DNA of 20,000 nt from an uncultured virus (IMG/VR IMGVR_UViG_2061766007_000288). Its lineage: Duplodnaviria > Heunggongvirae > Uroviricota > Caudoviricetes. The notes under the pieces are model-generated. The model did no database searches and was not told the DNA's origin. It saw only the letters and a program-made list of their open reading frames with translations. Both the position numbers and the translations under genes were made by a program. This document shows, one piece after another, positions 2,282-19,951 of this stretch; position 1 is the first letter of the stretch; every line of letters begins with the position of its first letter. The stretch lies in the IMG/VR virus record IMGVR_UViG_2061766007_000288; one strand, given 5' to 3'.

Positions 2282-3361
2282 CTACCTCCCGATTGCCTTC
2301 ACGTAATCTTCGAGGATTTGGTTGTGGTGGAATGCCAGACGTGTCCTACGGGCCACGCTCAACGGGAACCATGCAGCTTCCGCGGCATCGTCGTCACCCT
2401 TGACCGGACCAAAGGTACCACGCACATACACGCCCACGTCATACGCCCAGTGGCCAGGCACGCTCTCACGCGGATCTTCCGGGATGTACACCTTCAACTG
2501 GTGGACCTGATTGGGGTAGACGACAAGGCCAGTTTCCTCATTGAGTTCTCGGCATCCGCAATCCTCGATAGGCTCATGCGGGTTGGTAAAGCCACCGGGA
2601 AGGGCCCAGTACCCGGCAAAGGGCCAACGCTTGCGACGCACCAGGAGCACCTGGTCCTCGCGACCGATGGCCGGCTCACCGATACCATTGATGACCACGG
2701 AGGTAACCGTGACCGAAGGCTTCGGGTAGTCGCCGGGCTTGTAGTTGGCAAGTTCCCGGTGTTCATCGGCCCAATGGTTCACCGGATTGTCCTGATGGTA
2801 CAGGCCATGCCGGAAGATGTACCCGAGAACTTGCGGAGAAACAGCCGTGCCCTCGTACATGGGGTTCATGAACATGTCACTACGGACAGCGGTGGACGAC
2901 ACGTCGGGCACATTCACGAAGATGGGCTTGATGTCGCCACGGTCGCCGAGTTCCGTATGGAAGTTGAAGTTGCGCCCACGGTTGAACACGCGGATGCTGT
3001 ACTTGCCGATAAGTTTCTCTGAATCCTTCCACTTGCCGGCAAGCAGGGCTTCGAGCTCGTCCATGCCGATAATGAGGTCAATGCCTGGGTCCTTCTTCTC
3101 GGACCCGGTGACATAGTTCCCATAGACCGTTTCGAGCAGATCGAACGTACGGACCGACTGCTTGTGGATATTGAGTTTCGGGAAACAGGTAATCAGCATG
3201 TCGTATCGGTCCTGGAACGAGGCACTGTACTGCTTCTCGTCATTCTCGGTCAGATAGACATGCACTTCCGGGTAGTTTTCCAGTAGATACTCGATGATGG
3301 CCTCGTGGCCGACGGTAAGCGGGTCAAATGCACCGCCATAGACTGCGATTCTCTTTTCCAT
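2282..3361 (-). CDS. Bifunctional NadD-like (nicotinate/nicotinamide nucleotide) adenylyltransferase - Nudix (ADP-ribose pyrophosphatase-like) fusion
   Basis: YGGAFDPLTVGH ((T/H)xGH motif), LIIGMD..WK, VSSTAVR and HGLY match the NadD fold. C-terminal Nudix box GGFTNPHEPIEDCGCRELNEETGL and LAFHH. Start set at 3361 after the AAGGA SD. Confidence 0.88.
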   Translation of the reverse strand: MEKRIAVYGGAFDPLTVGHEAIIEYLLENYPEVHVYLTENDEKQYSASFQDRYDMLITCFPKLNIHKQSVRTFDLLETVYGNYVTGSEKKDPGIDLIIGMDELEALLAGKWKDSEKLIGKYSIRVFNRGRNFNFHTELGDRGDIKPIFVNVPDVSSTAVRSDMFMNPMYEGTAVSPQVLGYIFRHGLYHQDNPVNHWADEHRELANYKPGDYPKPSVTVTSVVINGIGEPAIGREDQVLLVRRKRWPFAGYWALPGGFTNPHEPIEDCGCRELNEETGLVVYPNQVHQLKVYIPEDPRESVPGHWAYDVGVYVRGTFGPVKGDDDAAEAAWFPLSVARRTRLAFHHNQILEDYVKAIGR

Positions 3362-3683
3362 ATTTACCATTCCTTAATTCCGATAGGCAACGGCTCATCG
3401 AATGCAATGTAGTAGGTACCTATGGTTCTCGGTTCAATTTGGTGTTCCTGCTCAATGGCTTTCTTGATGAAGCCGGCGGCATGTTCCATTGAATCGAAAA
3501 CCACGTCCATCAATAGGTTCGTATATAATTCAATGTTGCCGTTTTTAGTGTCGGCTTGCTTCATAGTATAATTGTGCCAAATGGACATGCCGCTCGACCA
3601 CTGGGGAATCCACCCTTCAGCATTTTCTTTAACTCGATGTATCTTATCTATATATAGTTCCATATTTACCATTCCTTAATTCC
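3356..3683. repeat. Exact 26-bp direct repeat, copies at 3356-3381 and 3658-3683
   Basis: Both copies read GGAATTAAGGAATGGTAAATATGGAA on the minus strand: last codons, stop, SD and next ATG. Confidence 0.95.
3364..3663 (-). CDS. Hypothetical protein, paralog of 3666..3947
   Basis: Shared pattern Y.DK.HR.K....W.PQW......W..YT...ADT..G.IELY.....DV.F...Y..FD..LP.GIKEW. Confidence 0.8.
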   Translation of the reverse strand: MELYIDKIHRVKENAEGWIPQWSSGMSIWHNYTMKQADTKNGNIELYTNLLMDVVFDSMEHAAGFIKKAIEQEHQIEPRTIGTYYIAFDEPLPIGIKEW

Positions 3684-5056: not shown

Positions 5057-6235
5057 CTAGTCCTTCACCAGGAACAAAAACCTTCTGCGAGAGTTTGTAA
5101 ACTTGTTGCATTGTATGTAGTCCTCATCGGTAATGTACTGTCCATCACCGACCATACGTCTCTCTTCTTGCCGCTCAGATTCAGTGTGCATTATGAGCCG
5201 GTCGCCAACAAGATCAACCCTTGCCGACCTAAACCAATGAATCTGCGTTTTCACGTTCCCATCAGCGTCAAGCAAGTCCGTAATACATACTTCCTGCGAC
5301 ACAAAGGGGGCCACATTACCAAAAGTTGACTTTCGGATAGTCCCGTTTTCTGGACCAGCAAGCGCCAATGAACCAAATCCCAACAAGTCCCGCATGATAT
5401 CCGGTGCACTCTTTCCGGTTTCCCGGATTTCATCATCCTCATTCTCATTACTGCGAACTATGTCACACCTTCCCTGGTCAGTCGTAATATACAGAGATGG
5501 ATATGAGTCACCCTTATTTAATTGTCGCGGTATCCTGACGCCGCACATTGCAAACGCACGACCATTCGACCAGGAATTAGAGTACATTTTGCCGCAATCC
5601 ACGGCACCGCTTCGAATTACCTTTCCGCCCAACGCCGAATACAGGCGATACAGGTCATCAAGGGTTGGCAAATGCCAGCCGTCCGGTATGGCCTCCTTGA
5701 TGTCCGCATGCGAATACAATATGCCATGCGAACCATCTTCGGCCGACACGCTGACAGTAAGGGACGGTTCAAGAGCACGTATAATCGCTTCCGTCTCTGG
5801 AGTCAACGCATCCGCCTTGTATCGATATGTGATAAGTTCCCTTGCCTTACCGAATCGTGAATAATTATGCGAATGCGGCATGTTGGAATGTGTCAACAAC
5901 ACAAGCGAAGATCGTCCGTACGTAGCGGAGTTACCCACCTGGTCGGATAACCTAAACTCCCCGATACCCCGACCATTGCTATATTCATTGGCAAGCATAT
6001 CGGTAACGACGGCCACACTCGAGTCGTCATGTGGGAGGTTCGCTTTCTTCAAGGCGTCACGCACAGTTTGCTCACGTTCATTGCGCAACTGTTCCACGTA
6101 GTTATCACCTTGGCCAAAATCAAGATATGGCGTCAAGTCCTCCAGTATTGAGCCATCGATAATGGTGTCACCAATCTTGACCCCCTCAAGAAACACGTTA
6201 TATATCGGATCATACACATCTATGTTGCCATCCAT
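5057..6235 (-). CDS. Hypothetical protein with the central FISUMP (Fib_succ_major)-like motif; possibly the 3' half of one gene with 6245..7576
   Basis: HGILYSHADIKEAIPDGWHLPTLDDLYRL resembles FISUMP YGxLY...CPxGWHLP; no clear SD before ATG 6235. Confidence 0.65.
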   Translation of the reverse strand: MDGNIDVYDPIYNVFLEGVKIGDTIIDGSILEDLTPYLDFGQGDNYVEQLRNEREQTVRDALKKANLPHDDSSVAVVTDMLANEYSNGRGIGEFRLSDQVGNSATYGRSSLVLLTHSNMPHSHNYSRFGKARELITYRYKADALTPETEAIIRALEPSLTVSVSAEDGSHGILYSHADIKEAIPDGWHLPTLDDLYRLYSALGGKVIRSGAVDCGKMYSNSWSNGRAFAMCGVRIPRQLNKGDSYPSLYITTDQGRCDIVRSNENEDDEIRETGKSAPDIMRDLLGFGSLALAGPENGTIRKSTFGNVAPFVSQEVCITDLLDADGNVKTQIHWFRSARVDLVGDRLIMHTESERQEERRMVGDGQYITDEDYIQCNKFTNSRRRFLFLVKD

Positions 6236-6244
6236 GCTGACAAA

Positions 6245-7576
6245 TCATCGCGTGGAAGTCTTTACCACATAGCTATTCGGCACATTATGGTGAACATACA
6301 CCGAGACATTAACCCGTGCATTGCATTCCTGTATTACGTCATTTGCTGTTTCGTCATCGGCAGGATGGCGCCAGTCAATCGAGCATGTAAGCCCGTCTTC
6401 GGTGCGCGTGACACACAGGATCGGGAGAAACACCTTGATTTCCGGACGTACGGGGCATAATGTGGTTTCCAGAGTTTCCAGGTTTCCCGGAATTTCAGGA
6501 ATTTTCGTTGGCGAGTACCTGAGGGGTTCGGCCATCCACGTCCTGCCTCCAATCGTCTCTGTACGGTAGGTATTGCCGTCCCTCTTGTCGGTAAATGTCC
6601 CGGAACGGCGAATGCGGTTCTTGCCAAGGCATATACTCTTCGTAATCACCTTCCTATCAGCAATCACCTTGGCATTATTCGCAAGTCGCTCCTCTCGCAT
6701 GCGGACCGCCAGCTCATGATATGTATCGTGTCCATAGGGCGGGCATAATTCAAAGAACGGCCCACCCAGCAAGTCCGAAAGTTCAACCTCGTCGTACTTG
6801 TTGTCACCCTTGCGGACATCCAAATTGTCATGGGCATGGTTCCACCGGTTATTCACATGGACGAGACGACCGCCGGGTCCGATGTCGATACCCAGCATGG
6901 ATTCGCCATACAGTTCATCGGTTTCGGTCAAATTCTCGAACCCCGGAAGAACAGCCAGGTAAAGTTTCACCGGCAGCGTCTTATCCCCGGCATTGGCCAT
7001 CCGGTAATGGTCAAACATGCTCTGCGAATTGAGGTGACACCATACATGCGGCTTAGTGTATTCGGCATATTCTTTCGTCGTTTCAAAGTCATCAAGCGGG
7101 ATTATCTTATAACGTCTCTGCCCATACTTCCGCCTACGGAGCATGCGTTTCATCGCGCTCCAATGCTTGGCTATCCTCTGGCCATATATTTCATCCAGTT
7201 CCTTGAATGAGGGACGCCGGCCGTCCATACCGAGATAACGGTCATACTCACGCGAATGGGCAATGGAAATAATGCGGATTATGTCATGAAGACGGCCAAT
7301 CGGCCCAGGTTCTTCATCACCCGTACCAAGCGACAATTCACCAAACGCAAGTCTTGCAGCGCCCGGCGCAAAACGTATCTTGCACTGTCCGTCCCTGAAA
7401 AAGTGGGCACGGACATCCTGGTATGCTGCACGGGTCCAGGAAGAAATCCCCCTTGTCTGGGCGACTTCCTCATAGATAGCCTGGAGACGCCCCCTGTTTG
7501 GGAGGGCCATCAGGACCTTCTTGGTGTAGCGGTAGGCATCGCCTTCTGAGCCATTTGCAGTTTCGCTCGGTAGCAT
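6245..7576 (-). CDS. Hypothetical phage protein with the N-terminal FISUMP-like motif near its C-terminus
   Basis: GTFTDKRDGNTYRTETIGGRTWMAEPLRY resembles FISUMP FTDxRDGxxYxTVxIGxQxWMAENL. The upstream region carries WC...YGESM...RWNH motifs of unknown function. GAGG SD. Confidence 0.7.
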   Translation of the reverse strand: MLPSETANGSEGDAYRYTKKVLMALPNRGRLQAIYEEVAQTRGISSWTRAAYQDVRAHFFRDGQCKIRFAPGAARLAFGELSLGTGDEEPGPIGRLHDIIRIISIAHSREYDRYLGMDGRRPSFKELDEIYGQRIAKHWSAMKRMLRRRKYGQRRYKIIPLDDFETTKEYAEYTKPHVWCHLNSQSMFDHYRMANAGDKTLPVKLYLAVLPGFENLTETDELYGESMLGIDIGPGGRLVHVNNRWNHAHDNLDVRKGDNKYDEVELSDLLGGPFFELCPPYGHDTYHELAVRMREERLANNAKVIADRKVITKSICLGKNRIRRSGTFTDKRDGNTYRTETIGGRTWMAEPLRYSPTKIPEIPGNLETLETTLCPVRPEIKVFLPILCVTRTEDGLTCSIDWRHPADDETANDVIQECNARVNVSVYVHHNVPNSYVVKTSTR

Positions 7577-7584
7577 CGTTCTTG

Positions 7585-9075
7585 CCTCGTAAAAAGTATA
7601 GAAAGTATAGGCGGAATAGCCTATGGCTTAAACATAGCAATTTACGGTTGTGTTGACAACATGGTTCCGTAGACGGTTAAAGAACTCGTCCACCAGTGCC
7701 GCCCTACCATCGCTGGTAAGTATGCACTGAGCATCCGTCCCACATAACTGCGGGGTTTCCTCGGTAGTTTCGCCACACCCCGAGAGGGATGTGGCCAGAG
7801 CCACCAAGTCCGCTGGCGTGAATTTCCGACGGGCAACGTCGGTATTGAATCTTATCTTGAGTTCGCAGAACAGGGCTTCCGCAAGGATATTGATGGCGCC
7901 ATTGACATCACGGTCGATAGCCAACCCGCACTCCTCACAGATATATTCCCGTTCGGACAGGGAAAGGTCCTCTTTCCGTCCACCGCATCCGGAACATGTC
8001 TTGCTTGACGCGAACCAACGGTCCACGAAAAGCAGCAACGTTCCGAGCTTCCTGCACTTGTATTCGAGAAATCTCCTTATCATCCCGAACCCACAGTCCG
8101 CTATCGCGGAGGCAAGCCTGTGGTTTGACATCATACCCTTAACGTTCAGGTCCTCGATGGCTATCACCATGTTGTCTCGGACCATCTCCGTAGTCGCCTT
8201 GTGGATTGCATCCTTACGGTAATTGGCGACATACGAATTCTTCTTGTTGAATAATTTCTTAACTCTTTTGTATTTGGATGACCCCTTCCTGCGACGGCTC
8301 ATGCGCCGCTGGTACCGTTTCAACGCCTTCGCATGCTTGCGAAATATCTTGGCATTCAGGTAGGTGGTGCCATCGTTCTTGGTAATCAGGCTCTTAACAC
8401 CGAGGTCGTATCCCGCTATCCCGTTGCTGGTAAGATTATTCTTTATAGCAGTCTCGTCATAGGTGTAGGATATCGAGACGTACCACTCCCCGTTACTTTC
8501 TTTGGAAATGGTATAGTTATTTATCTTTCCGTCAAGGCATTCTTTGCATACAGTCTCCGCCAGCTTGACCTGTTTCTTTATCATCGGCAGCTTGATGAAT
8601 TGTGCATTAACAAGACGAGCCTGATCGTTCTCTATGTAGAATGCACGCTTCGAGGTATATTTCTTCCGCTTAGGAAAACCGAACTGTTTCGGGTTCTCGT
8701 AGTGCCTCTTCTTCGCCTGGCAGAAGTTCTTGATTGCCTGGTCCATGGAGCCTTTCGGGCTCTCGTACATCCAGTCCAGCTTCTCCGCATTGAACTCCTT
8801 ACGGAGCTCTGCACAGGTAACGCTTTCCTGACCGGCCTTCTTTTTCTCGAACCACCTGTCCCTCGCCCAGTTATATGCATAGCGGGCACAACCGCATGCA
8901 CGGTTAAGAACATGCGCTATCGAACTGTCCGTCTTCAGCATTATCTTCTGGGAACTGGTTTGCATACAAAAAGTAAATGTCCCAGCAACGCCTATTGTGG
9001 TATTTAACGCTGCCGGGACATTCAAAACTGTTTAGTATTCAATACAAGAAATACCACTAACTTGTATCAATACAT
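7585..9075 (-). mobile_element. Putative non-autonomous tnpB-only element; boundaries uncertain
   Basis: No tnpA adjacent. 3' side has a hairpin (7607-7624) and a tandem 9-mer AAAGTATAG (7593-7610). 5' side has a 15-bp hairpin (8976-9022) and an imperfect inverted repeat (9035-9073). Confidence 0.5.
7628..8965 (-). CDS. tnpB: TnpB RNA-guided endonuclease (IS200/IS605 or IS607 family), catalytic residues intact
   Basis: N-terminal HTH (RACGCARYAYNWA), RuvC-I GYDLG, RuvC-II IAIEDLNV, Zn finger SSKTCSGC..CEEC, RuvC-III IDRDVNGA. Start at ATG 8965 (MQTSSQK). Confidence 0.93.
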   Translation of the reverse strand: MQTSSQKIMLKTDSSIAHVLNRACGCARYAYNWARDRWFEKKKAGQESVTCAELRKEFNAEKLDWMYESPKGSMDQAIKNFCQAKKRHYENPKQFGFPKRKKYTSKRAFYIENDQARLVNAQFIKLPMIKKQVKLAETVCKECLDGKINNYTISKESNGEWYVSISYTYDETAIKNNLTSNGIAGYDLGVKSLITKNDGTTYLNAKIFRKHAKALKRYQRRMSRRRKGSSKYKRVKKLFNKKNSYVANYRKDAIHKATTEMVRDNMVIAIEDLNVKGMMSNHRLASAIADCGFGMIRRFLEYKCRKLGTLLLFVDRWFASSKTCSGCGGRKEDLSLSEREYICEECGLAIDRDVNGAINILAEALFCELKIRFNTDVARRKFTPADLVALATSLSGCGETTEETPQLCGTDAQCILTSDGRAALVDEFFNRLRNHVVNTTVNCYV

Positions 9076-9184
9076 AAAGTTTATAACATCTCATTAAGAA
9101 ATATAGATATTTTCACCAATTTAATTCTTACATATTACTTACATTTTCGTATTTATATAGTTTTGATAACTAATATCGTACTAA

Positions 9185-9315
9185 AACACGAAACTGCGGC
9201 CTTGCAGGGGCGTCCCCCTGCTCGACCGCAGCCTCCGAGGACCCTTCGATGACACACATCAGCCGTTTAGACTCCTTGCGGAGGGCCGACACACATCATA
9301 GTAGGAATCCTCTTC
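9185..9315 (-). ncRNA. Candidate structured non-coding RNA of unrecognised family
   Basis: GC-rich island in an AT-rich gap. Minus-strand pairing: 9312-9305 with 9244-9237; 16 bp 9299-9284 with 9264-9249 (7 G-U pairs); CUCC-GCAA-GGAG hairpin; then a second long hairpin 9231-9194 followed by UUUCGUGUUUU. Confidence 0.55.
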
Positions 9316-9348
9316 GTTAATTTTGTATCATTTTTAGAATGACTACCA

Positions 9349-10326
9349 CTACCTAGATCCCGTCGAGCCGAAACCACCCCTAGACGGATCGGTCATCTTC
9401 CCTTCTACAAAGGCAATTTTCGGCTGGCGTTCCATAATACGGAACTGGCAAATCTTATCATCCTTGTTGATAACGGTGTCGCGCATGGCGATGACGGACA
9501 TCTTCCACCAATCTTCTGGACCAGAATAGGAATTGTCAATGATACCAACATGGTTAGCCTGGATAATACCCCACTTCTTGAATGTAGAAGAACGCGGAAC
9601 AATATGGGCTTCGTAGCCTTCCGGGAGCTTCATGGCCACGCCGAGGTGGATGAGCTTGTGTTCGCCCTGCTTCAACTCGACCGTTTCTGCAGCATACATG
9701 TCGATCCAGTCGCCCTTCTTTTCAATGGAAAGGCGCTTCACGCTGTCGTTGAGGTACTGAACGGTGATCTTCATTCCATCGGGCTCGGGCTCGGGCTTAA
9801 AGGCAGTTTTCAGCTTATCTTCCATATTCCCTAGTTCGACTTCCATGTCAGGACCGTCCTCGATAGAAAATGTGCCGAGACCGTTAATGAAGATTTTGGC
9901 ATTCTTCATACCGCTCTCCACTGAAGTCACGAAATCCAAGGATCCGATCATGATGTTGTCACGTAACATGCCTGTCACCGGGTGGTCCCTGTCCATGCCG
10001 CACATGGTGAGACATATATCGTATTTGGCGAGANNNNNNNNNNTAAAGGCAGTTTTCAGCTTATCTTCCATATACCCGAGATCGACTTCCATGTCAGGAC
10101 CGTCCTCGATAGAAAATGTGCCGAGACCGTTAATGGAGATTTTGGCATTCTTCATACCGCTCTCCTCTGAAGTCACGAAATCAAAGGATCCGATCATGGT
10201 GTTGTCACGTAAAATTCCTGTCACCGGGCGGTCCCTGTCCATGCCGCACATGGTGAGACATATATCGTATTTGGCGAGAACTTCGCGGATTCTTTTGTTG
10301 ATATTTGTGATAACAATGTTACTCAT
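9349..10326 (-). CDS. dut: Trimeric dUTPase (9349..9774) fused via a PEPEPDG linker to an unknown N-terminal domain that appears twice around an N gap
   Basis: GDWIDMYA, IVPRSS, GIIDNSYSG, KICQF and SRGGFGSTG correspond to dUTPase motifs I-V. Confidence 0.92.
   Translation of the reverse strand: MSNIVITNINKRIREVLAKYDICLTMCGMDRDRPVTGILRDNTMIGSFDFVTSEESGMKNAKISINGLGTFSIEDGPDMEVDLGYMEDKLKTAFXXXXLAKYDICLTMCGMDRDHPVTGMLRDNIMIGSLDFVTSVESGMKNAKIFINGLGTFSIEDGPDMEVELGNMEDKLKTAFKPEPEPDGMKITVQYLNDSVKRLSIEKKGDWIDMYAAETVELKQGEHKLIHLGVAMKLPEGYEAHIVPRSSTFKKWGIIQANHVGIIDNSYSGPEDWWKMSVIAMRDTVINKDDKICQFRIMERQPKIAFVEGKMTDPSRGGFGSTGSR
9798..10279. repeat. 236-bp near-identical duplication around an N gap (9798-10033 and 10044-10279), probably two haplotypes scaffolded in tandem
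   Basis: Manual alignment shows 10 substitutions; both copies abut the gap. Confidence 0.85.
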
Positions 10327-10341: not shown

Positions 10342-11688
10342 TTAAAAATTCTTCCAATCCATCGGAAGCCAATTCTCTGCGAGTTCCACGGAGAACTTGC
10401 CGATTTCTTCCGGTGTATATGCCTTTTCCTTCAATCCGGATTCGGCAAACGCCTTGTTCACTTCCTTGCCAAGCTCGCTGATGTAGTCGATGATGTCATC
10501 AAACGTCCAATCACCGTTCTTGATGGCCAGGAGGAAGTCACGGTCATTGTTGTACGGATGCTTGTTGTAATCCATGCAGACCTTGTTGCAGAGGTCCCTG
10601 TCGGCACGGTAGACCGGGACGGTATGCTCGGTGGCGATACCGTAGGCGGTAAGAAGCAGACGGACACAGTGCATGATGTTCTTCGCATCATATCCCTGTC
10701 CATGCTTCAACGTGGTGTTGTAGCGTTCCTCATTACGGGCCTTGACCCAGTCCCAATACTCGTGCCACTTCTTGCACTTACGCGCAAAGTCGTTGCGGTT
10801 CACGAAGATATGGGCAACGGGGCTCAAACCCTTCGGGATGGAGTTGAGTTGGATATCATCGCTGCGCTCGATGTCACGGACGACACCATAGCCCCAACGC
10901 CACTTGTGCTCAGGAAGCTGACGGACACCCTTGAATACCTTGGAGAGGCATTTCCGGACGAATTCGCGGATACTGATGGACAGCGGCTTCTTCTGGAAAT
11001 ACATAGCGTAAATACAGTCGCCATGGTCGATACGGGCGATAGAGAACCAACGCTGCACTTCCTCCGGCTTGCCGCGATAGTTGGCCTTGACCCATTCCAT
11101 GAGTGGAGTGGCAAGGTTGCCATCGAGCACGTAGATGAAATCGACAAAGCGCGGCCTGTCTTTTGGCTGCGGGTCGAACACCTTCCTGTTCAGGCCCTTG
11201 GCGCGGTCAACCTGGCCACGGGCATACTCGCAGAACGACTTGTCACAGCGCATGGTGAGGAAGTCAAATCTCTGGCGGAGGATTTCCAGGATGGACTGGC
11301 CGATAAACACGCAGTGCCTCGGCGCATAGAGCATTTCGAGAGCCTGGGGATTTGCGGAGTTCAATTCGGTAAGGAACTTCGTGATGTCCCAGTAGACCTC
11401 GTTGTTCTTCTCGTCGGCAATCTGGCTAGGTGCATCGTGCTTTACACGCTCGCTCCATTTCAGGATATACACGCCGTGGATATCCACGTCGGATGTCTCG
11501 GTCGCGAGACCGAACGACTGCGAACCCGCGGCAACCTTGATAAGGAGGATACCCTTTTCATGGACCCTCTTCTCGGTCTCGGACATGGCGCCATTGGTCA
11601 CCTGTTCTTCCCAGTAGCGTTCGAGTTCCTTCGAGAATGGTGGGAGTTCGGGTATATTGTTCTTTAAAATTTCGCTATTATCGTTCAT
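10342..11688 (-). CDS. Pol-beta superfamily nucleotidyltransferase, RlaP/YcgL-like (PF10127)
   Basis: AGSQSFGLATETSDVDIHGVY (GS..DxD), WDITKF..L..ANPQALEML, GYDAKNIMHCVRLL, LLAIKNG. Start at 11688 from promoter geometry. Confidence 0.85.
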   Translation of the reverse strand: MNDNSEILKNNIPELPPFSKELERYWEEQVTNGAMSETEKRVHEKGILLIKVAAGSQSFGLATETSDVDIHGVYILKWSERVKHDAPSQIADEKNNEVYWDITKFLTELNSANPQALEMLYAPRHCVFIGQSILEILRQRFDFLTMRCDKSFCEYARGQVDRAKGLNRKVFDPQPKDRPRFVDFIYVLDGNLATPLMEWVKANYRGKPEEVQRWFSIARIDHGDCIYAMYFQKKPLSISIREFVRKCLSKVFKGVRQLPEHKWRWGYGVVRDIERSDDIQLNSIPKGLSPVAHIFVNRNDFARKCKKWHEYWDWVKARNEERYNTTLKHGQGYDAKNIMHCVRLLLTAYGIATEHTVPVYRADRDLCNKVCMDYNKHPYNNDRDFLLAIKNGDWTFDDIIDYISELGKEVNKAFAESGLKEKAYTPEEIGKFSVELAENWLPMDWKNF

Positions 11689-11728
11689 GTTCAAAATATA
11701 GCAAAAATAATGGGCGGTGGAAACGCCC
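11689..11728 (-). promoter_or_regulatory. Promoter copy 3, predicted leaderless, overlapping a short terminator-like hairpin
   Basis: TTTCCA(11723-11718)-17 nt-TATATT(11700-11695)-6 nt-ATG(11688). Stem GGGCG/CGCCC (11712-11728) followed by ATTATTTTT. Confidence 0.75.
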
Positions 11729-11739
11729 GGGTATAATTT

Positions 11740-11954
11740 TTATGCAAGATTTACCGACAAAGGAACATGCCTTCGTCCCAAGGCTATCTCGTGCACTTTG
11801 GCAAGGTCATCAAAATTGAAATATCTGTCCATTCCATCCACCTGGTATGCACAGATCGGACATGTGCCGCGCTTGCATTCTACACGGTATTCCTCGTTTT
11901 TCCGAAGAATTTGAACATCACTTCCTTCGGAAACACGATTACGAACTTATCCAT
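11740..11954 (-). pseudogene. Small gene apparently frameshifted at an A5 run
   Basis: ATG 11954 (TGATG overlap) gives MDKFVIVFPKEVMFKFFGK. One extra A at 11897-11901 would continue it as NEEYRVECKRGTCPICAY...NLA* to TAA at 11740. Confidence 0.5.
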
Positions 11955-12445
11955 CATTTCACCACCTTTGCATCCTGGAACGCTTCTTGAAGTTTTTCAA
12001 CCAGTTCTTTTTCATATAGGCCGCTGAGAGAATCATTCGAATTACTGTATTCGAGATCGGTCAAGATGCGGAAGAACGAATCATTGAAACGGTCAGACTG
12101 AAAGTGATCGCGGAACTCCTTTGGAAGGGTTATCGTGAGCGTCAGTTCATGCTCATTGACTTCCAGACCGCGCAGCTTGGCAACCACGTCCTTGATGCTC
12201 ATTTCCTCGTCATCGTACCGGTACTTGTTGTGATATACCTCGACCGTGTGGGCATCGTCCTCCCACTGGACCGAACCGTCCGGACACGGGAACAGTTCCA
12301 TTTCGGGTGGGACAAACGGCTGCAGAATCTTGGCCCGCATGATGGTCTCATGAGTAATGGCCTCGTTCGGACGCCCGTCGCCGGACATGTCGTACCACCC
12401 AGGCTCAGCACAATCCTTCTCGATGCTGTCAAGTGTATTCCTCAT
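11954..12445 (-). CDS. Hypothetical protein
   Basis: Track ORF trimmed to ATG 12445 (MRNTLD), which forms a TAATG overlap with the upstream stop. Confidence 0.72.
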   Translation of the reverse strand: MRNTLDSIEKDCAEPGWYDMSGDGRPNEAITHETIMRAKILQPFVPPEMELFPCPDGSVQWEDDAHTVEVYHNKYRYDDEEMSIKDVVAKLRGLEVNEHELTLTITLPKEFRDHFQSDRFNDSFFRILTDLEYSNSNDSLSGLYEKELVEKLQEAFQDAKVVK

Positions 12446-13284
12446 TAGATAAGCACCTTCTTGAAAGCGTCGTAGTTTTCGGTGTCCGCACCGCGACAGT
12501 AGACGGCGAACTCGATTGCCTTGAAGCGCTTGCGGAATTCCGGCACGACTTCCTTGTAGGCCGATGCAACCACCTTCGGATCGTTGCGGAATGCCCCGCA
12601 CCCGAATGCACCGAGGATTACTACATCAACGAACTCCCGTGCAGCTGCACTCAGGATCTGACGGGCACGGGAGACATGGATGGCCTTCAATTCCTCGGGG
12701 GAGATATCCGGCGCCAGTTCACGTTCCTGGTTGTACTTGGAAATGTTCTTCTCGCGCAGGTTGGGTGCCGCGCAAGTGATTACGTCGATGAACACCGGTT
12801 CCGGGAGCCAGTCGTAGTCATCATTACGGAGAATTGCGACATTCGGCGTATAGATGATGTCGTCGTTGTGCAACGGGCCCACATTCTTGCGGTGCGGGTC
12901 ATAGAAACGGATATCGGCTTCCTTGGTCGTGAGGCACGGGTAGAGCGTGGTGCAGCGGCAGATGCATTCTTCCTGGGCGGACGAACCGGTCACGACACCG
13001 CCACCAGGACGGGTAGCGCTCGCGAAATTGAGTACGGCCACCTTGCCACTTGGATTGGCCTTCTTCCACCTCAGCGCACTGTCGATCGAACGGTCACGGG
13101 AAACCGTGACGGGACAATCGTCATCGTAAATGGGCGCGATGGACTTGATGTCCACCGGTTTCAAGTGGAACAACTGGTTCGAAATGGACTCGTTGATTAC
13201 CTTCCCTAGGGAGGCATCTCCCTTGATCTTGGCCATCGTATTCTCGAAGATGCCAATGTTGTAACTTCTGATGTCGTTATACAT
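12445..13284 (-). CDS. TIGR02452-family microbial PARG-like macrodomain protein
   Basis: VAVLNFASATRPGGG...SAQEECICR, IIYTPNV, VITCAAPN, ILGAFGCGAFRNDP. Start set at 13284 (MYNDIR). Confidence 0.92.
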   Translation of the reverse strand: MYNDIRSYNIGIFENTMAKIKGDASLGKVINESISNQLFHLKPVDIKSIAPIYDDDCPVTVSRDRSIDSALRWKKANPSGKVAVLNFASATRPGGGVVTGSSAQEECICRCTTLYPCLTTKEADIRFYDPHRKNVGPLHNDDIIYTPNVAILRNDDYDWLPEPVFIDVITCAAPNLREKNISKYNQERELAPDISPEELKAIHVSRARQILSAAAREFVDVVILGAFGCGAFRNDPKVVASAYKEVVPEFRKRFKAIEFAVYCRGADTENYDAFKKVLI

Positions 13285-13672
13285 TCTTTGATCCGCGGTT
13301 AATTTCCTTGATTTCATTGTTCTTTTCGGCAACCAGGTTGGCCACCTTCGTAAAGAAGGATTCCGTTTCCAGTTCAACCATGCGATGCTGATGTTCACAC
13401 ATCGTCACGAATTCGCGGGACAATGTTTTGCACGGAAGGAAGGAAAATGTCCTGGCGATTACCGTATTACGATACCAGGTATCAACGAAATTCAACTGAA
13501 TCTGCGCATTGAGGCACTTGAATGAACCGTTGGCGCATTCGCTAATCCAGAATTCCAGGCGCACGCCATCCTTTCCCTTAGTGAACCGCCTACGGTCACG
13601 GTCGGTCTCGAAACCGCATGCTGTCAACCAGTCCCCAAATTCCTGAATTTCTGACCATGTAGGTTTTGCCAT
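13277..13672 (-). CDS. Hypothetical protein
   Basis: ORF packed between the CCA and PARG genes; start MAKPTW lies 2 nt after the upstream stop. Confidence 0.7.
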   Translation of the reverse strand: MAKPTWSEIQEFGDWLTACGFETDRDRRRFTKGKDGVRLEFWISECANGSFKCLNAQIQLNFVDTWYRNTVIARTFSFLPCKTLSREFVTMCEHQHRMVELETESFFTKVANLVAEKNNEIKEINRGSKNV

Positions 13673-13674
13673 GA

Positions 13675-15023
13675 TTACCACATCCTGTTCATTGAATTGT
13701 ACCAGCCATCCTTAATGTTCTTATAGTCATCGAGGATGACTTCCCGCAGACGCTTGCCAAATTCCGGCCCTTCCTGAATACCTTCTGCAGCAACTTGCTT
13801 TCCGTATTCGGGTTCGCCCTTCCGGCAACGGGCAATGATTTCGCATATTGTCACCGCGCCATCGCCCAGGGCAGTTCCATACGGGTTCAGTTCGCGGTAC
13901 AGGTTGGTGATAATCCTGAATTCCGGGGAAGCGGCCATATCAACAGAATAGAGCAGCTTCTCATCGGCAAGGCCGAACTTGCCGGACATGATGCCGATAA
14001 GGCCATCCCTGATGCGTTCAGCCATACGGATTTCCTTGCGGGTACAGCGGAGCCATTCCATTGTCTTCTTCGGCAGCATGCAGATGAATACGGACATGAT
14101 TGTGTCTGCGTCCACGTTGCCGCGTACCAAGGTTTCCACCAGCATGCGCTGACGGTCGAAGCAGAAGCCGGCATCCTGGAAAATCGAACCGATACCGTAA
14201 TCGGACAGGTAACCAATCATGTTCACAAATGGCATAACTCCGTACTCGGCGCACTTGTGGAGCTCGTCATGGATACGTTCCATGGCAACGTTCTTTACAT
14301 GGTGGAGACGGCTACGCATCGCCAGCTTGGTAAGATCGTCAATCACGAAACCGAAACGGGCAGCAAATCGCATTCCACGAATGATACGGAGGGAATCCTC
14401 GGTCATGCGGTCATACGGGTTGCCCACTGCGCGGAGCCGACGGAACACCAGGTCATCGATGCCACCGAAGTAGTCTATGACATTGAGGTCCTTGTCCAGG
14501 CCCATCGCGTTGATTGTGAAGTCACGACGGGCGCAGTCCTCCTTGAAGGACTTGGTGAAATTCACAGAATCCGGGTGACGGCCGTCGGAGTAGTTGCCAT
14601 CGACACGAAACTGGGTCACCTCGAACACCAGGCCCTCGTAATGGACCAGGATGGTGCCNNNNNNNNNNTGAAATTCACGGAATCCGGGTGGCGACCGTCG
14701 GAGTAGTTGCCATCGACACGGAACTGGGTCACCTCGAACACCAGGCCCTCGTAATGGACCAGGATGGTGCCATGTGTCTCGCCGTTATTGGAATCGCAGC
14801 GGAAGGCAAGTCTCAGGTCCTCGATGGGCATGTTGGTCGCGATGTCCACGTCATGGACAGGGACTTCGGCATCGGTACCCGGAACCATGCCCAACTGGCG
14901 AATAACGAGGTCACGCACCGCACCGCCGGCAATGTATGCCTCGTGCTTGCGCTTGTGGATTTCGGCAAGAAGACCAATGCCCTTCCTGACGGTCTCCGAA
15001 ATGTACTTTTCTTCAATCTTCAT
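13675..15023 (-). CDS. cca: Class II tRNA nucleotidyltransferase (CCA-adding enzyme) lacking an HD domain; split in the ORF track by an assembly gap
   Basis: AYIAGGAVRDL..HDVDIAT (DxD), EVTQFR, EDCARRDFTINAM, EDSLRIIRGMRF (EDxxR), ERIHDEL, GPEFGK. Collapsing the 103-bp duplicate restores one ORF. Confidence 0.9.
14556..14771. repeat. 103-bp duplication around an N gap (14556-14658 and 14669-14771), probable haplotype/scaffolding artefact
   Basis: 4 substitutions, all synonymous in the cca frame. Confidence 0.88.
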
Positions 15024-15058
15024 GTCCCAAATGTAGCAAAAAGGTTGCCTTGCGGCAA
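15024..15058 (-). promoter_or_regulatory. Promoter copy 4, predicted leaderless
   Basis: TTGCCG(15058-15053)-17 nt-TACATT(15035-15030)-6 nt-ATG(15023). Confidence 0.8.
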
Positions 15059-15061
15059 CCT
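15038..15061 (-). terminator. Intrinsic terminator overlapping promoter 4
   Basis: AGGTTGCC-GCAA-GGCAACCT perfect 8-bp stem with a GNRA loop, followed by TTTT, 6 nt after the stop at 15068. Confidence 0.8.
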
Positions 15062-15067
15062 GCATGT

Positions 15068-15700
15068 TCATTCCCGTGGCATGGTGTAACTGTCCAGGAG
15101 ATTGACCTCTTCAGTATCCAGTAATTTCTTGGTTTTTTCCTGTGCCCGCAAACGGAACCTCTCGGCATCATCGAATTTCGTGAAAACCTTCTTTCCAACA
15201 AGACACCATGAGTCCATCATCTTCAAGACAACTACATATGACTTTTCCGGAATTTTTGCAGGAATTTCAAGCGGTGGCGATATCTTTCCTGGATGCAGAG
15301 GCAGTGGCATCCACCATTCGATGGAATGGCCCTCGTCGCCAGTCTGGGCATCCAGGCAACGGTCGCTATGCGTGACGATATTGTCCACATCGGAACGGTA
15401 TTCTCCCCAGTCCAGCATGCCATCTTCCCAAATTAGGAGGACATTCCCATCCTTCTCGGTCGGTTCACGATCTTCCATCGAAATCCACATGGAACCCGTA
15501 GCGCTTTCACGCTGATATGCAGCCAGCATCTTCCTCAAAACCGCATTTTCCTCTTCCAGACGGCTAAAATCGTTAATTGCGGTATCGGCGAGGCGCTTCA
15601 GGTGTTCAAGTTCGCTCTTATGAACCTCAACCCTGATATTCTGGGGGAGTTCCATGCCGGGCATTACCGGGTAATGTGGGGTCTTTTCGTTCTCATTCAT
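15068..15700 (-). CDS. DUF551-domain phage protein
   Basis: WISMEDREP...NVLL...IEWWMPLP, preceded by a coiled-coil-like segment. Confidence 0.75.
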   Translation of the reverse strand: MNENEKTPHYPVMPGMELPQNIRVEVHKSELEHLKRLADTAINDFSRLEEENAVLRKMLAAYQRESATGSMWISMEDREPTEKDGNVLLIWEDGMLDWGEYRSDVDNIVTHSDRCLDAQTGDEGHSIEWWMPLPLHPGKISPPLEIPAKIPEKSYVVVLKMMDSWCLVGKKVFTKFDDAERFRLRAQEKTKKLLDTEEVNLLDSYTMPRE

Positions 15701-18193: not shown

Positions 18194-18434
18194 TTACTTG
18201 GAGACGATTTCCACGATGCGCTCGGCAATCCGCTTCACGTCTTCGCGTACATCGTTCGCAAATACGATTGGTTCCGGGAAATGCGGGTCGTTGGAAGCAC
18301 GCCACTTGTCGTACAGGTTATTCTGCATCTCGTCCGTAAGGGCGACCATCTTCCTGAAATCGGCCAGCAGCAGCTTGTTCTTCCTGTATTCCTCATCAGG
18401 AAGCACACTGAAACCGGTGCATTCCGTCTCGATG
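18194..18434 (-). CDS. Hypothetical protein; 5' end lost in the N gap
   Basis: Open frame from the gap: IETECTGFSVLPDEEYRK...IVSK*. Confidence 0.65.
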
Positions 18435-18444
18435 NNNNNNNNNN

Positions 18445-19656
18445 CTTCCTGTAACTGACCGAATCTGCTAGAAGTTTTCCGGTGATATCCGCAACAGAAA
18501 ACGAACCCGACACTCTACGTGCGCTCAGGAAGCAATCCCTGTATGCATACTCGACGGAATCCATCAGACGGAATCCCCTTACTTCACGAGGTGCCTGGTT
18601 GTTTCTCCGCGTGCCACCAGGACGAATGGTTGCCCTGTGCAGCTGCCTGTTGTTCGCACGCAACTTGCGGATTATCAAGTAATTACCATCTGAACATGCA
18701 CACGGATTGCCACTGATGCAACGGGCATCAATCGCATGCTCCTTAGGCAGTCCATATTTACTACGGGTACTCTTGGTGATGTAGCCGTAGGTCTCGAAGC
18801 AAGGAATTTTGTTTCCAATTTCTTCATTCATCCGGTTGAACATCGCCTTCCGCATGATGCCCATCTGCGTGGCATCACGTAGCGAGGTGCCACGTCTTGC
18901 GGTCTTCGGTAACTTGATTTCGCCCCTATGGTACTTAGCATGACATTCCGAGCACAACGTGATGAGATTGTTAGGTGCATCTCCACCTGTCTTTCTGCTC
19001 TCGATATGGTGGACATGCAGTTTCTTGTCCTTGAACTTACCCTTGCAGCACTGGCATTTATGACCGTCACGACACAACACATATTCCCGCACATTAAAGA
19101 AACCGAGCTGCTCACCCTTCTGGTAGTCGGTCCCCTGCGGCAACGGAAGCCCCTGTTCCTTGGCTTTCAATAGCTGGGTATCGAACTGTGCAGTCTCCAC
19201 GGTTATCTTCTTGATAGGCAAGAACTTGCATATTATCGATATCCAGTGGATATGGGTATCCACCTTCTGCCTTACCGAAGGTGAAAGCCATCCCGGCTTC
19301 TTGAACCTGGTCCTGTTCAGGAACCTGGATTTTCTATAGCGAGTCTTCCTGTCCCTTCTGGTCCGACGGAACTCCCTTCGCGTGGAGAGCTTCTCCACGA
19401 TATCCGACCTAAGCAGCAATTCTGCCTCGAAAAGTACCTTCTTCTTGGTAGTGGCGGAGAATCCGACATGCTTCGTACCCGCGTCTACGCCTAGACTGAC
19501 CTCCTGCACGCCATTCGGCGTGTCATAAGTAAGCTGGATGGTGAATGGACGGTAATCGACAACGACTGCAAGGCCTTTCCTGAGCAGACGGTGGACCCTG
19601 CCGTACCGGGTGGTAGGCATCAGCGGCTTTCCGTATCTGTTCAGTACATAGACCAT
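18445..19656 (-). CDS. iscB: IscB RNA-guided endonuclease (OMEGA, RRXRR/HNH); C-terminus cut by the N gap
   Basis: MVYVLNRYGKPLMPT (PLMP), RuvC-I LGVDAG, Arg-rich bridge helix, RuvC-II VETAQFD, HNH VHHIESRKTGGDAPNNLITLCSECH, RuvC-III KEHAIDA. Confidence 0.95.
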
Positions 19657-19659
19657 TCG

Positions 19660-19951
19660 TTCGTTATCCTTTATTTGTTGTTTTTGACCTAACTTAATAG
19701 GTAATGCAGAGCTTTCGCTCTGTGGGTGGTCATCGACAATGTTAGGAGGGCTTGTCATGAACGCCACACTGCCCCTACCCATCAGGACTGTTTAATGACG
19801 CTCGGCAGGGCGGGGGACTTGACCGTTACATCCCAGGGTGCCGTGACCTCCCTAACGTAGTTCAGCGGATTTCTCTGCTTCACTGAGTCTAATCAACTAT
19901 GAGCCTGAGTTACCCCAAACTCACGGGTCTTTACACCCGTGGGTAGTTGAT
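19660..19951 (-). ncRNA. omegaRNA (HEARO-type) scaffold of IscB
   Basis: About 290 nt directly upstream of iscB. Starts TCAACTACCC, with stem ATCAACTA/TAGTTGAT (19892-19951), GTTGATTAGACTCAG, CTACGTT (19854-19860), ACATTGTCGATG (19731-19742) and hairpin CAGAGC-GAAA-GCTCTG. Confidence 0.88.

What the first reader, a model, noticed from the sequence alone, without database searches (positions are those of the whole stretch)
9185..9315. Unrecognised structured RNA with six consecutive G-U wobble pairs, upstream of a solo TnpB
Seen: an ~130-nt GC-rich island in an AT-rich non-coding gap. The 11-mer TGATGTGTGTC occurs twice as a direct repeat, yet the two copies can pair with each other on the minus strand: AUGAUGUGUGUCGGCC with GGCUGAUGUGUGUCAU, 16/16 pairs, 7 G-U, six of them consecutive. 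An outer stem (GAGGAUUC/GGGUCCUC) closes it, a GCAA tetraloop hairpin caps it, and a 15-bp two-part hairpin with a U-rich tail follows. The wobble pairing works on one strand only, which suggests RNA-level selection. I do not recognise it as tRNA, SRP, hammerhead or omegaRNA. Inference: a novel phage sRNA, for example a protein-binding decoy or antitoxin mimic using the repeat, or an upstream-encoded RNA partner of a domesticated TnpB.
Basis: partly seen in the sequence, partly recalled or inferred. Interest (0 to 1): 0.7.

Follow-up and report, generated by a model that had tools for sequence, protein, structure and literature searches.

The report
Phage RNA hairpin plus terminator, not TnpB's

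Summary
Observation confirmed. The fold works on that strand only.

The RNA does not belong to TnpB. The TnpB element (9182-7582) is a 1,601-bp insertion, and a near-identical phage contig from another study lacks it. None of 9 TnpB relatives with upstream DNA carries the hairpin. None of 25 dUTPase relatives carries it either.

The RNA travels with the gene downstream of the insertion, a conserved ~840-aa ORF that is split in this window. In 4 of 5 related viral contigs the same apex lies directly 5' of that gene. The apex is GGCC, a GNRA-capped hairpin, a 5-7-nt bulge, and GGCU, on a G·U-rich helix. In three contigs it tops a ~260-290-nt rod RNA placed right after tRNA-Gly(CCC).

Pairing is kept through substitutions, while the direct repeat is not conserved. 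No Rfam family matches. Expression and function were not shown.

Best reading: a reduced domain of a phage non-coding RNA fused to an intrinsic terminator at the end of the RlaP-dUTPase operon.

The parts
9237..9312 (-). Hairpin 1. It has an outer stem, an internal loop, a 16-bp G·U-rich helix, a GCAA-capped 4-bp hairpin and a 7-nt 3' bulge. It is homologous to the apex of the relatives' rod RNA.
   Evidence: Folds. Homologs L039, L040 and L043 were found by model R1. L045 was found by pattern and fold. Between window and L039, 11 substitutions at paired positions break no pair.
9260..9288 (-). Conserved core of hairpin 1: the GGCC/GGCU helix, the GNRA hairpin and the bulge.
   Evidence: These 29 nt are identical to L040. 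The tetraloop is GCAA, GCGA or GAAA in the relatives.
9288..9298 (-). 5' copy of the 11-mer direct repeat TGATGTGTGTC. It forms part of the 5' arm of the G·U-rich helix.
   Evidence: The repeat is not conserved in L039, L040, L043 or L045.
9251..9261 (-). 3' copy of the 11-mer direct repeat. It forms part of the 3' arm of the G·U-rich helix.
9183..9235 (-). Hairpin 2 (9235-9194, two-part, 19 pairs in the consensus) plus a U-rich run (9193-9183). It looks like an intrinsic terminator.
   Evidence: Only 1 of 38 paired positions differs from L039. The simple terminator scan did not list it.
7582..9182 (-). Inserted TnpB element: tnpB ORF 7628-8965, an AT-rich left end, and a right end finishing 6 nt before ATG 7576. 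It is not part of the RNA.
   Evidence: Pfam match. Homology limits to L029-L036. A DNA contig of run X5 joins 7581 to 9183.
9349..10326 (-). Upstream gene: a dUTPase-like protein of 325 aa, last gene of the operon that starts at the promoter-like box 11693-11704.
5057..7576 (-). Downstream partner gene: homolog of the ~840-aa ORF. Here it reads as 443 aa (6245-7576) plus 392 aa (5057-6235), split by an in-frame TGA.

Best explanation
The segment 9312-9183 (minus strand) is one transcribed, structured RNA region made of two parts.

Hairpin 2 plus its U-run works as a Rho-independent terminator. It ends or attenuates the transcript that starts at the promoter-like box at 11704 and runs through the RlaP-like nucleotidyltransferase and the dUTPase-like gene.

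Hairpin 1 is the retained apical domain of a small family of structured RNAs of large rumen phages. In relatives the same apex tops a ~260-290-nt rod-shaped RNA. That RNA lies between a promoter-like box with tRNA-Gly(CCC) on one side and the next promoter box on the other. In this lineage (window, L039, X5 contig) only the apex survives, fused to a terminator.

In every locus the RNA lies directly 5' of one conserved ~840-aa gene. In the uninterrupted allele that gene's Shine-Dalgarno-like run and ATG follow the U-run within about 20 nt, so the gene would be reached only by read-through.

TnpB is a bystander. Its 1,601-bp element landed between the U-run and that start codon.

Shown here: the structure, strand specificity, homology, synteny and the insertion.

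Inferred: that hairpin 2 terminates, and that hairpin 1 acts as a stability or protein-recognition domain of the transcript's 3' end.
For: Structure and strand:
- (energies under the observation check).
- G·U pairs make up 7-12 of 23-26 pairs in all five apex homologs.
- The whole rods fold at -146.5 and -133.7 kcal/mol in sense, against -113.9 and -100.1 in antisense.

Conservation of pairing, window vs L039:
- 43 pairs, 86 of 86 cells paired, 2 two-sided and 8 one-sided changes.
- Randomly placing the 11 observed substitutions broke no pair in only 0.075% of 20,000 trials; the mean was 4.5 broken pairs.

Conservation of pairing, L040 vs L043:
- 83 pairs, 165 of 165 cells paired, 8 two-sided changes.
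- Only 1 of 500 shuffles scored as high.

Synteny:
- The apex lies upstream of the 840-aa homolog in L039, L040, L043 and L045, that is 4 of the 5 viral contigs that carry the gene.
- tRNA-Gly(ccc) lies directly upstream in L040, L043 and L045.

Promoter boxes:
- In L040, L043 and L045 one box precedes the tRNA and one follows the rod.
- In L039 a box lies about 45 nt before the RNA.

TnpB as an insertion:
- Homology with 8 TnpB loci covers only about 9164-7575 of the window.
- The right end is conserved up to 6 nt before ATG 7576.
- The X5 contig (38,476 nt) joins 7581 to 9183, with 8 other letters between.

Terminator:
- A GC-rich stem is followed by a run with 7 U in 11 nt. In L039 the run has 10 U in 12.
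- No promoter box lies between dut and the element.
Against: - No transcript was seen. The contigs of three RNA runs did not cover 9183-9318, so expression, RNA ends and termination remain untested.
- The simple terminator scan found 0 sites in 8800-9500, and the U-run is interrupted (UUUCGUGUUUU).
- Each covariation test rests on only two sequences, and the structures were predicted from those same sequences. For window vs L039 the shuffle control is weak (120 of 500 as high).
- G·U-rich helices tolerate transitions by nature.
- L045's apex was not found by model R1. L044 has a structured RNA in the same place but no clear apex.
- In this window the partner gene carries an in-frame TGA and is cut off from the RNA by the insertion. 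The locus may therefore be decaying, and hairpin 1 may be a relic.
Confidence: 0.55

Rival explanations
1. Cis-acting leader. Hairpin 1 plus the terminator form a regulated attenuator, or a read-through or antitermination signal, that sets how much RNA polymerase enters the ~840-aa gene.
For: - In the uninterrupted alleles the U-run is followed within about 20 nt by a purine-rich Shine-Dalgarno-like run and the ATG, with no promoter box between (L039; X5 joint; box scan).
- In L039 a promoter-like box lies about 45 nt upstream of the RNA, so the RNA would be the gene's 5' leader.
- Adjacency to this gene holds in 5 of 5 relatives.
- Hairpin 2 is almost invariant: 1 of 38 paired positions differs.
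Against: - I found no alternative (antiterminator) pairing by eye between hairpin 1 and hairpin 2. This was inspection only, not a computation.
- In L040, L043, L045 and L044 a promoter-like box lies between the RNA and the gene. There the RNA is a separate unit, not a leader.
Confidence: 0.2
2. Nothing more than an oversized terminator or 3' UTR. Hairpin 1 is kept by descent and has no role of its own.
For: - Position at the end of the RlaP-dUTPase-like operon.
- In relatives the rod's closing helix plus U-run sits where this phage normally has a short hairpin plus U-run before a promoter box. That arrangement is seen at 3 of the 5 boxes at window 18143, 15039, 11704, 5037 and 1563 (my reading).
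- The local partner gene is damaged.
Against: - The ordinary hairpins before promoter boxes in this window have 5-9 bp. This element is 130 nt long.
- The core is 29 nt identical to L040, although the 840-aa proteins share only about 40% identity over their length (57% in the best N-terminal segment).
- Pairing is kept through 11 substitutions.
Confidence: 0.12
3. Trans-acting RNA partner of the ~840-aa protein. The RNA would be encoded just upstream of the gene, as HEARO/omega RNA is for IscB, and the protein's conserved N-terminal ~360 aa would bind the apex.
For: - The RNA-gene pair is kept while the upstream neighbour changes: dUTPase-like gene, a small ORF, and tRNA-Gly after an NAD-dependent DNA ligase.
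- The N-terminal domain is strongly conserved, with 28 invariant columns across 36 sequences, and has no known fold or family.
Against: - No evidence of binding.
- Adjacency alone is weak evidence.
- The C-terminal part has weak matches to Fib_succ_major, a lectin-like domain, which suits a surface or structural protein.
- The reduced form in the window and L039 lacks most of the rod.
Confidence: 0.08
4. RNA partner, decoy or antitoxin mimic of the solo TnpB.
For: Only its position 5' of tnpB in this window.
Against: - It lies outside the element.
- None of 9 TnpB-relative loci that hold upstream DNA matches it.
- It is present in L039, L040 and L043, where no TnpB element lies between it and the gene.
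- TnpB's guide RNA comes from the 3' end of tnpB and the right end (PMC8612924, passages read). That region is conserved here.
Confidence: 0.02
5. DNA-level element: the two 11-mers act as protein-binding or recombination sites.
For: An exact 11-mer occurs twice, 37 bp apart.
Against: - The repeat is not kept in any relative, while complementarity is.
- The pairing needs G·U, so it works only as RNA of one strand.
Confidence: 0.03

Closest known systems
Rho-independent (intrinsic) terminators
   Same: Hairpin 2 is a GC-rich stem-loop followed by a U-rich run at the end of an operon.
   Different: It is preceded by a second, 76-nt conserved hairpin. Its stem is two-part and unusually long, and its U-run is interrupted. 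Termination was not tested.
GOLLD and ROOL RNAs (large phage or prophage RNAs often near tRNAs; PMC5737381, passages read)
   Same: The long form is a phage-borne structured RNA of unknown function placed next to a tRNA gene. The runs that hold this phage are labelled bovine gut, and ROOL was first seen in cow rumen data.
   Different: It is much smaller (about 260-290 nt against about 580 nt and more). Neither Rfam model gave a match. It has a rod shape rather than many junctions.
TnpB omega RNA / reRNA (PMC8612924)
   Same: A structured RNA next to tnpB.
   Different: reRNA comes from the 3' end of tnpB and the right end. This element is 5' of tnpB, outside the element, and independent of it.
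HEARO / IscB omega RNA (RF02033)
   Same: An RNA encoded directly upstream of a large ORF. A true HEARO is present in this window at 19722-19951.
   Different: No model match at 9183-9312. The downstream protein has no RuvC, HNH or RRXRR domains.
Small stable RNAs made together with the tRNA cluster of phage T4 (recalled from memory, not checked in a call)
   Same: Structured RNAs of unknown function made with phage tRNAs.

Membership tests
TnpB omega RNA / reRNA | [quoted passage not shown] | tested here: not met
   The element lies 5' of tnpB and outside the insertion limits 9182-7582.
TnpB omega RNA / reRNA | Co-occurs with TnpB homologs. | tested here: not met
   0 of 9 TnpB-relative loci with upstream DNA match it. 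It is present in L039, L040 and L043 with no TnpB element between it and the gene.
HEARO / IscB omega RNA (RF02033) | Match to the covariance model. | tested here: not met
   The only HEARO hit in the window is at 19722-19951. Nothing appears at 8900-9500 up to E 10.
Any Rfam 15 family (including GOLLD, ROOL, SRP, 6S, Y RNA, riboswitches, ribozymes) | Covariance-model match at or near the gathering score. | tested here: not met
   The best match overlapping 9183-9312 scores 14.2 bits against a gathering score of 35, E 1.4. The relatives' long forms gave only weak sRNA matches, the best at E 0.82.
tRNA / tmRNA | Cloverleaf or tmRNA detected by ARAGORN. | tested here: not met
   0 genes in the window.
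Intrinsic terminator | GC-rich stem-loop directly followed by a U-run, at the end of a transcription unit. | tested here: met
   Sequence and fold. No promoter box lies between dut and the element. Caveat: the simple scan listed 0 sites.
Intrinsic terminator | RNA 3' ends at the U-run in vivo or in vitro. | not testable with these tools
   Only assembled contigs of RNA runs were available, and none covered the element.
Candidate family: jumbo-phage apex/rod RNA (defined here) | GGCC and GGCU strands flanking a GNRA-capped 4-5-bp hairpin and a 5-7-nt 3' bulge, on a G·U-rich helix. | tested here: met
   Found in window, L039, L040, L043 and L045. R1 finds the first four.
Candidate family: jumbo-phage apex/rod RNA (defined here) | Lies directly 5' of the ~840-aa gene. 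| tested here: met
   Met in the uninterrupted allele (X5 joint) and in 4 of 5 relatives. In the window itself the two are separated by the TnpB insertion.

The most novel reading that the evidence does not exclude
The hairpin is the conserved business end of an undescribed ~260-290-nt structured RNA that is linked to tRNA-Gly in rumen jumbo phages. This RNA would work together with an equally uncharacterised ~840-aa protein that is widespread on very large phage contigs (96 clusters, many on contigs of over 100 kb). It would act either as that protein's RNA partner or as its dedicated regulator.
Probability: 0.15. Interest if true: 0.7.

Novelty: new member of a known kind. Interest (0 to 1): 0.4.

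Why it matters
The finding removes a tempting but wrong link between a solo TnpB and an 'upstream RNA'. It also shows a TnpB element caught as a present/absent polymorphism in a phage population.

What remains is a candidate structured RNA family tied to one conserved gene of unknown function in large rumen phages, with a tRNA-linked long form. Phage RNAs placed next to tRNAs (GOLLD, ROOL) are still functionally unexplained, so a small and tractable RNA in the same genomic setting could be useful.

The evidence base is thin: six loci and no expression data. Large catalogues already list thousands of candidate structured RNAs in phages (PMC10690425).

Tried and rejected
**Searches for a known RNA family**
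- Rfam at gathering and at E up to 10, on the window and on the relatives' RNAs: nothing relevant.

**Searches for more copies or relatives**
- blastn 'distant' of 9000-9420 against GenBank phages: no match.
- tblastn of the 443-aa ORF against the same collection: no match.
- Repeat pattern in viral contigs: one hit, L001, in an unrelated GC-rich context with no shared structure. I read it as chance.
- Exact core patterns in viral contigs: only the L040 and L043 contigs.
- Protein alignment A1 in genome contigs: none.
- Degenerate core pattern in genome contigs: 25 hits in unrelated bacteria and archaea. None has a complementary hairpin. My rough estimate is that about 100 hits are expected by chance.
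- Model R1 over five whole viral contigs: single copies only, in G001-G003.

**Expression**
- RNA runs X15, X17 and X18: their contigs lay only on dut- and tnpB-like parts at about 90% likeness, and none covered 9183-9318. This is no evidence either way.

**The 840-aa protein**
- 443-aa AlphaFold model, mean pLDDT 82.
- Foldseek against PDB: best E 0.5.
- VIA-align wide: best Z 4.2.
- Pfam, PHROGs, PDB sequence search and ESM Atlas: nothing usable.

**Other checks**
- No whole genome is held for the window.
- Earlier findings of this scan: nothing.
- The core string was not found in the 6 searchable supplements of PMC10690425. Files 1, 2 and 4, which may hold the alignments, could not be searched, so the motif may already be listed there.
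- MAFFT alignments of all five or six RNAs (A2, A3, A6) misaligned the apex and were not used for counts.

Full report
**1.

- an outer stem GAGGAUUC/GGGUCCUC;
- an internal loop;
- a 16-bp helix with 7 G·U pairs, six of them consecutive (pair table);
- a 4-bp hairpin capped by GCAA, and a 7-nt bulge on the 3' side.

A second, two-part hairpin follows at 9235-9194, then a U-rich run at 9193-9183.

The 171-nt stretch 9340-9170 folds at -71.1 kcal/mol on the minus strand (z -5.63, 0 of 200 shuffles as good). On the plus strand it folds at -52.7 kcal/mol (z -3.34). Hairpin 1 alone gives -22.0 kcal/mol (z -2.38, 4 of 200) on the minus strand. On the plus strand it gives -14.0 kcal/mol (z -0.92, 35 of 200).

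The 11-mer occurs exactly twice. No ORF of 50 aa or more overlaps 9026-9348. Rfam gives nothing there. The only gathering-level hit in the window is HEARO at 19722-19951, and the matches to 8900-9500 at E up to 10 are far below their thresholds.

**2. TnpB is a bystander**

The ORF 7628-8965 is a TnpB (OrfB_IS605, Cas12f1-like TNB domain and HTH domain).

Twelve loci encoding TnpB relatives were fetched (L027-L038). Eight of them gave nucleotide matches to window 9500-7400. Apart from one 35-nt match inside the dut gene, every match lies between about 9164 and 7575, and none touches 9315-9185. Nine of the twelve hold DNA upstream of tnpB.

The left flanks of those relatives are unrelated coding sequence. 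Their right ends are conserved up to a common terminus that, in the window, lies 6 nt before ATG 7576.

Direct proof of insertion comes from a DNA run of another study. A 38,476-nt contig of X5 matches the window on both sides, with 2 other letters over 7400-7581 and 1 over 9183-9983. It joins 7581 to 9183, skipping 1,601 bases, with 8 other letters between.

TnpB's own guide RNA derives from the 3' end of tnpB and the right end (PMC8612924, passages read). That region is conserved here.

**3. It is not tied to the dUTPase-like gene either**

Twenty-five viral loci encode relatives of the 325-aa protein. Neither blastn-short nor nhmmer finds the element in them.

The closest, L002, is syntenic: its RlaP homolog is 95% identical. 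There the dUTPase-like gene is followed at once by small ORFs, and L002 lacks TnpB and both halves of the downstream gene.

**4. It travels with the gene downstream of the insertion**

The 443-aa ORF (6245-7576) and the 392-aa ORF (5057-6235) are the two halves of one gene. L039 has it as a single 840-aa ORF. The window has an in-frame TGA where L039 has TGC.

In L039 the element's homolog (82.6% identity to window 9318-9183) ends 15 nt before that gene's ATG, with no TnpB between.

Only five viral contigs carry the gene:
- **L040, L043 and L045.** tRNA-Gly(ccc) is followed within about 10 nt by a ~260-290-nt rod-shaped RNA. Its tip is the same module: GGCC, a 4-5-bp hairpin capped by GCAA, GCGA or GAAA, a 5-7-nt bulge, then GGCU, on a G·U-rich helix. 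In L040, 29 nt of the core are identical to the window.
- **L044.** It has a structured ~300-nt RNA in the same place that shares a hairpin with L045, but it has no clear apex.

This phage group has a promoter-like grammar. A TTGC motif is followed, about 19 nt later, by a box close to TTGCTATATTTG. In the window an ATG follows the box after 4 nt at five sites (18143, 15039, 11704, 5037, 1563). The boxes are placed as follows:
- In L040, L043 and L045 one box precedes the tRNA and one overlaps the 3' end of the rod's closing helix.
- In L044 a box precedes the RNA. A hairpin with a U-run follows it, and a second box precedes the gene.
- In L039 a slightly deviant box lies about 45 nt upstream of the RNA.
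- In the window no box lies between 11704 and the element.

So the relatives' RNA looks like a transcription unit of its own. In the window the element is the tail of the RlaP-dUTPase-like operon.

**5. The structure is kept by selection, as far as few sequences can show**

Window vs L039:
- 43 consensus pairs, 86 of 86 cells paired, 2 two-sided and 8 one-sided changes.
- The built-in shuffle control is weak with two rows (120 of 500 as high).
- In a script I placed the 11 observed substitutions (9 transitions) at random among the 48 paired positions of hairpin 1. No pair was broken in 0.075% of 20,000 trials, and the mean was 4.5 broken pairs. The observed number is 0.
- Unpaired columns of hairpin 1 differ at 13 of 27 positions, paired positions at 11 of 48, and paired positions of hairpin 2 at 1 of 38.

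L040 vs L043:
- 83 pairs, 165 of 165 cells paired, 8 two-sided changes.
- Only 1 of 500 shuffles scored as high, and the slid controls pair 37-47% of cells.

Other points:
- G·U pairs are 7-12 of 23-26 pairs in all five apex hairpins. The rods fold about 33 kcal/mol better in sense than in antisense.
- The direct repeat itself is not conserved in any relative, but the pairing is.
- A covariance model of the apex (R1) found only the window, L040, L043 and L039 (E 0.012) among 27 sources. It found one copy per contig in G001-G003 and none in G004 or G005.

Caveats: each test has only two sequences, the structures were derived from those same sequences, and G·U-rich helices tolerate transitions.

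**6. How it most likely works**

Shown: a strand-specific, conserved RNA structure at the end of an operon, directly before the Shine-Dalgarno-like run and ATG of the ~840-aa gene in the uninterrupted allele.

Inferred:
- Hairpin 2 with its U-run terminates or attenuates transcription. The ordinary hairpins before promoter boxes in this window are 5-9 bp, seen at 3 of 5 boxes (my reading).
- Hairpin 1 is a retained functional domain, either a stability domain or a protein-recognition domain, of what is a free-standing RNA in relatives.
- The gene is reached by read-through in this lineage.

The rivals are:
- a regulated leader;
- a mere oversized terminator, with hairpin 1 a relic;
- an RNA partner of the 840-aa protein.

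The protein gives no help. It has no Pfam or PHROG family apart from weak Fib_succ_major matches in its C-terminal part. It has no fold match. Its 96 related clusters, many of them on contigs of over 100 kb, carry only 'hypothetical protein' or no name.

**7. Comparison with what is known, and novelty**

The element is not a member of any Rfam family, and it is not an omega RNA, tRNA or tmRNA.

By genomic setting the long form resembles GOLLD and ROOL, which are phage or prophage RNAs often near tRNAs. ROOL was first seen in cow rumen data (PMC5737381, passages read). It is much smaller than either and does not match their models.

A catalogue of 8,495 candidate structured RNAs from IMG/VR exists (PMC10690425, passages read). 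The core string is absent from its six searchable supplements. The files likely to hold the alignments could not be searched, so prior listing cannot be excluded.

I rate it a new member of a known kind, a phage structured RNA of unknown function, reduced in this window. Interest is moderate.

**8. Limits**

- No expression data. The RNA-run contigs did not cover the element.
- The genomic context of most 840-aa homologs could not be fetched.

Noticed in passing
window 18235-19951 (-): An IscB-like gene (RRXRR and HNH domains, 515 aa) with a full HEARO RNA (RF02033, 122.9 bits) at 19722-19951 overlapping its 5' end. This is a second RNA-guided nuclease locus in the same 20 kb.
   Followed up: partly
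window 7577-7600 (-); L030, L031, L032, L034 right ends: The TnpB element's right end finishes in ...TACGAGGCA(G). In the window and in four relatives it sits 3-8 nt before an ATG, so the element appears to land between a gene's ribosome-binding site and its start codon and to supply a replacement GAGG. Left flanks in four relatives end in GAG(A).
   Followed up: partly
window 9165-9182 (-): The window's left end of the TnpB element diverges from the relatives' terminal motif. Compared with the empty site in run X5, 8 flank letters are missing at the junction. The element may no longer be mobile.
   Followed up: partly
window 6245-6247 (-): An in-frame TGA splits the ~840-aa gene into 443 and 392 aa. 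L039 has TGC (Cys) at that codon and the frame continues. It could be a nonsense change, a sequencing variant or recoding; this was not resolved.
   Followed up: partly
window 13675-15071 (-): A CCA-adding / poly(A) polymerase head domain is split over two ORFs in different frames that overlap by 13 nt (14616-15071 and 13675-14628). It could be a frameshift or a sequencing error.
   Followed up: no
window (-) 18143, 15039, 11704, 5037, 1563: A promoter-like grammar: TTGC, about 19 nt, a box close to TTGCTATATTTG, 4 nt, then ATG. This suggests leaderless messages. Three of the five boxes are preceded by a short hairpin and a U-run.
   Followed up: partly
L040 about 3100-3125 (-); L043 about 1215-1240: The long-form RNA has a side hairpin whose loop reads GUUCGAAA (T-loop-like). 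Its stem is kept by 3 two-sided changes between L040 and L043 (helix 5). It was not seen in L045 or L044.
   Followed up: partly
window 8971-9060 (-): A 13-bp hairpin lies just upstream of the tnpB start, inside the element's left part. It gives weak sub-threshold Rfam matches (CopA-like 25.4 bits, TarB 24.6 bits).
   Followed up: no
window 9349-10326 (-): The 'dut' gene encodes 325 aa, but only residues 209-323 match dUTPase. The ~180-aa N-terminal part is shared only with L002. Other relatives match only residues ~185-325, and L039's homologous ORF is 144 aa.
   Followed up: no
window 10342-15071 and 2282-3370 (-): The neighbourhood is rich in RNA and nucleotide-handling genes: an RlaP-like nucleotidyltransferase, a microbial-type PARG, a CCA-adding enzyme, and a cytidylyltransferase-NUDIX fusion.
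   Followed up: no
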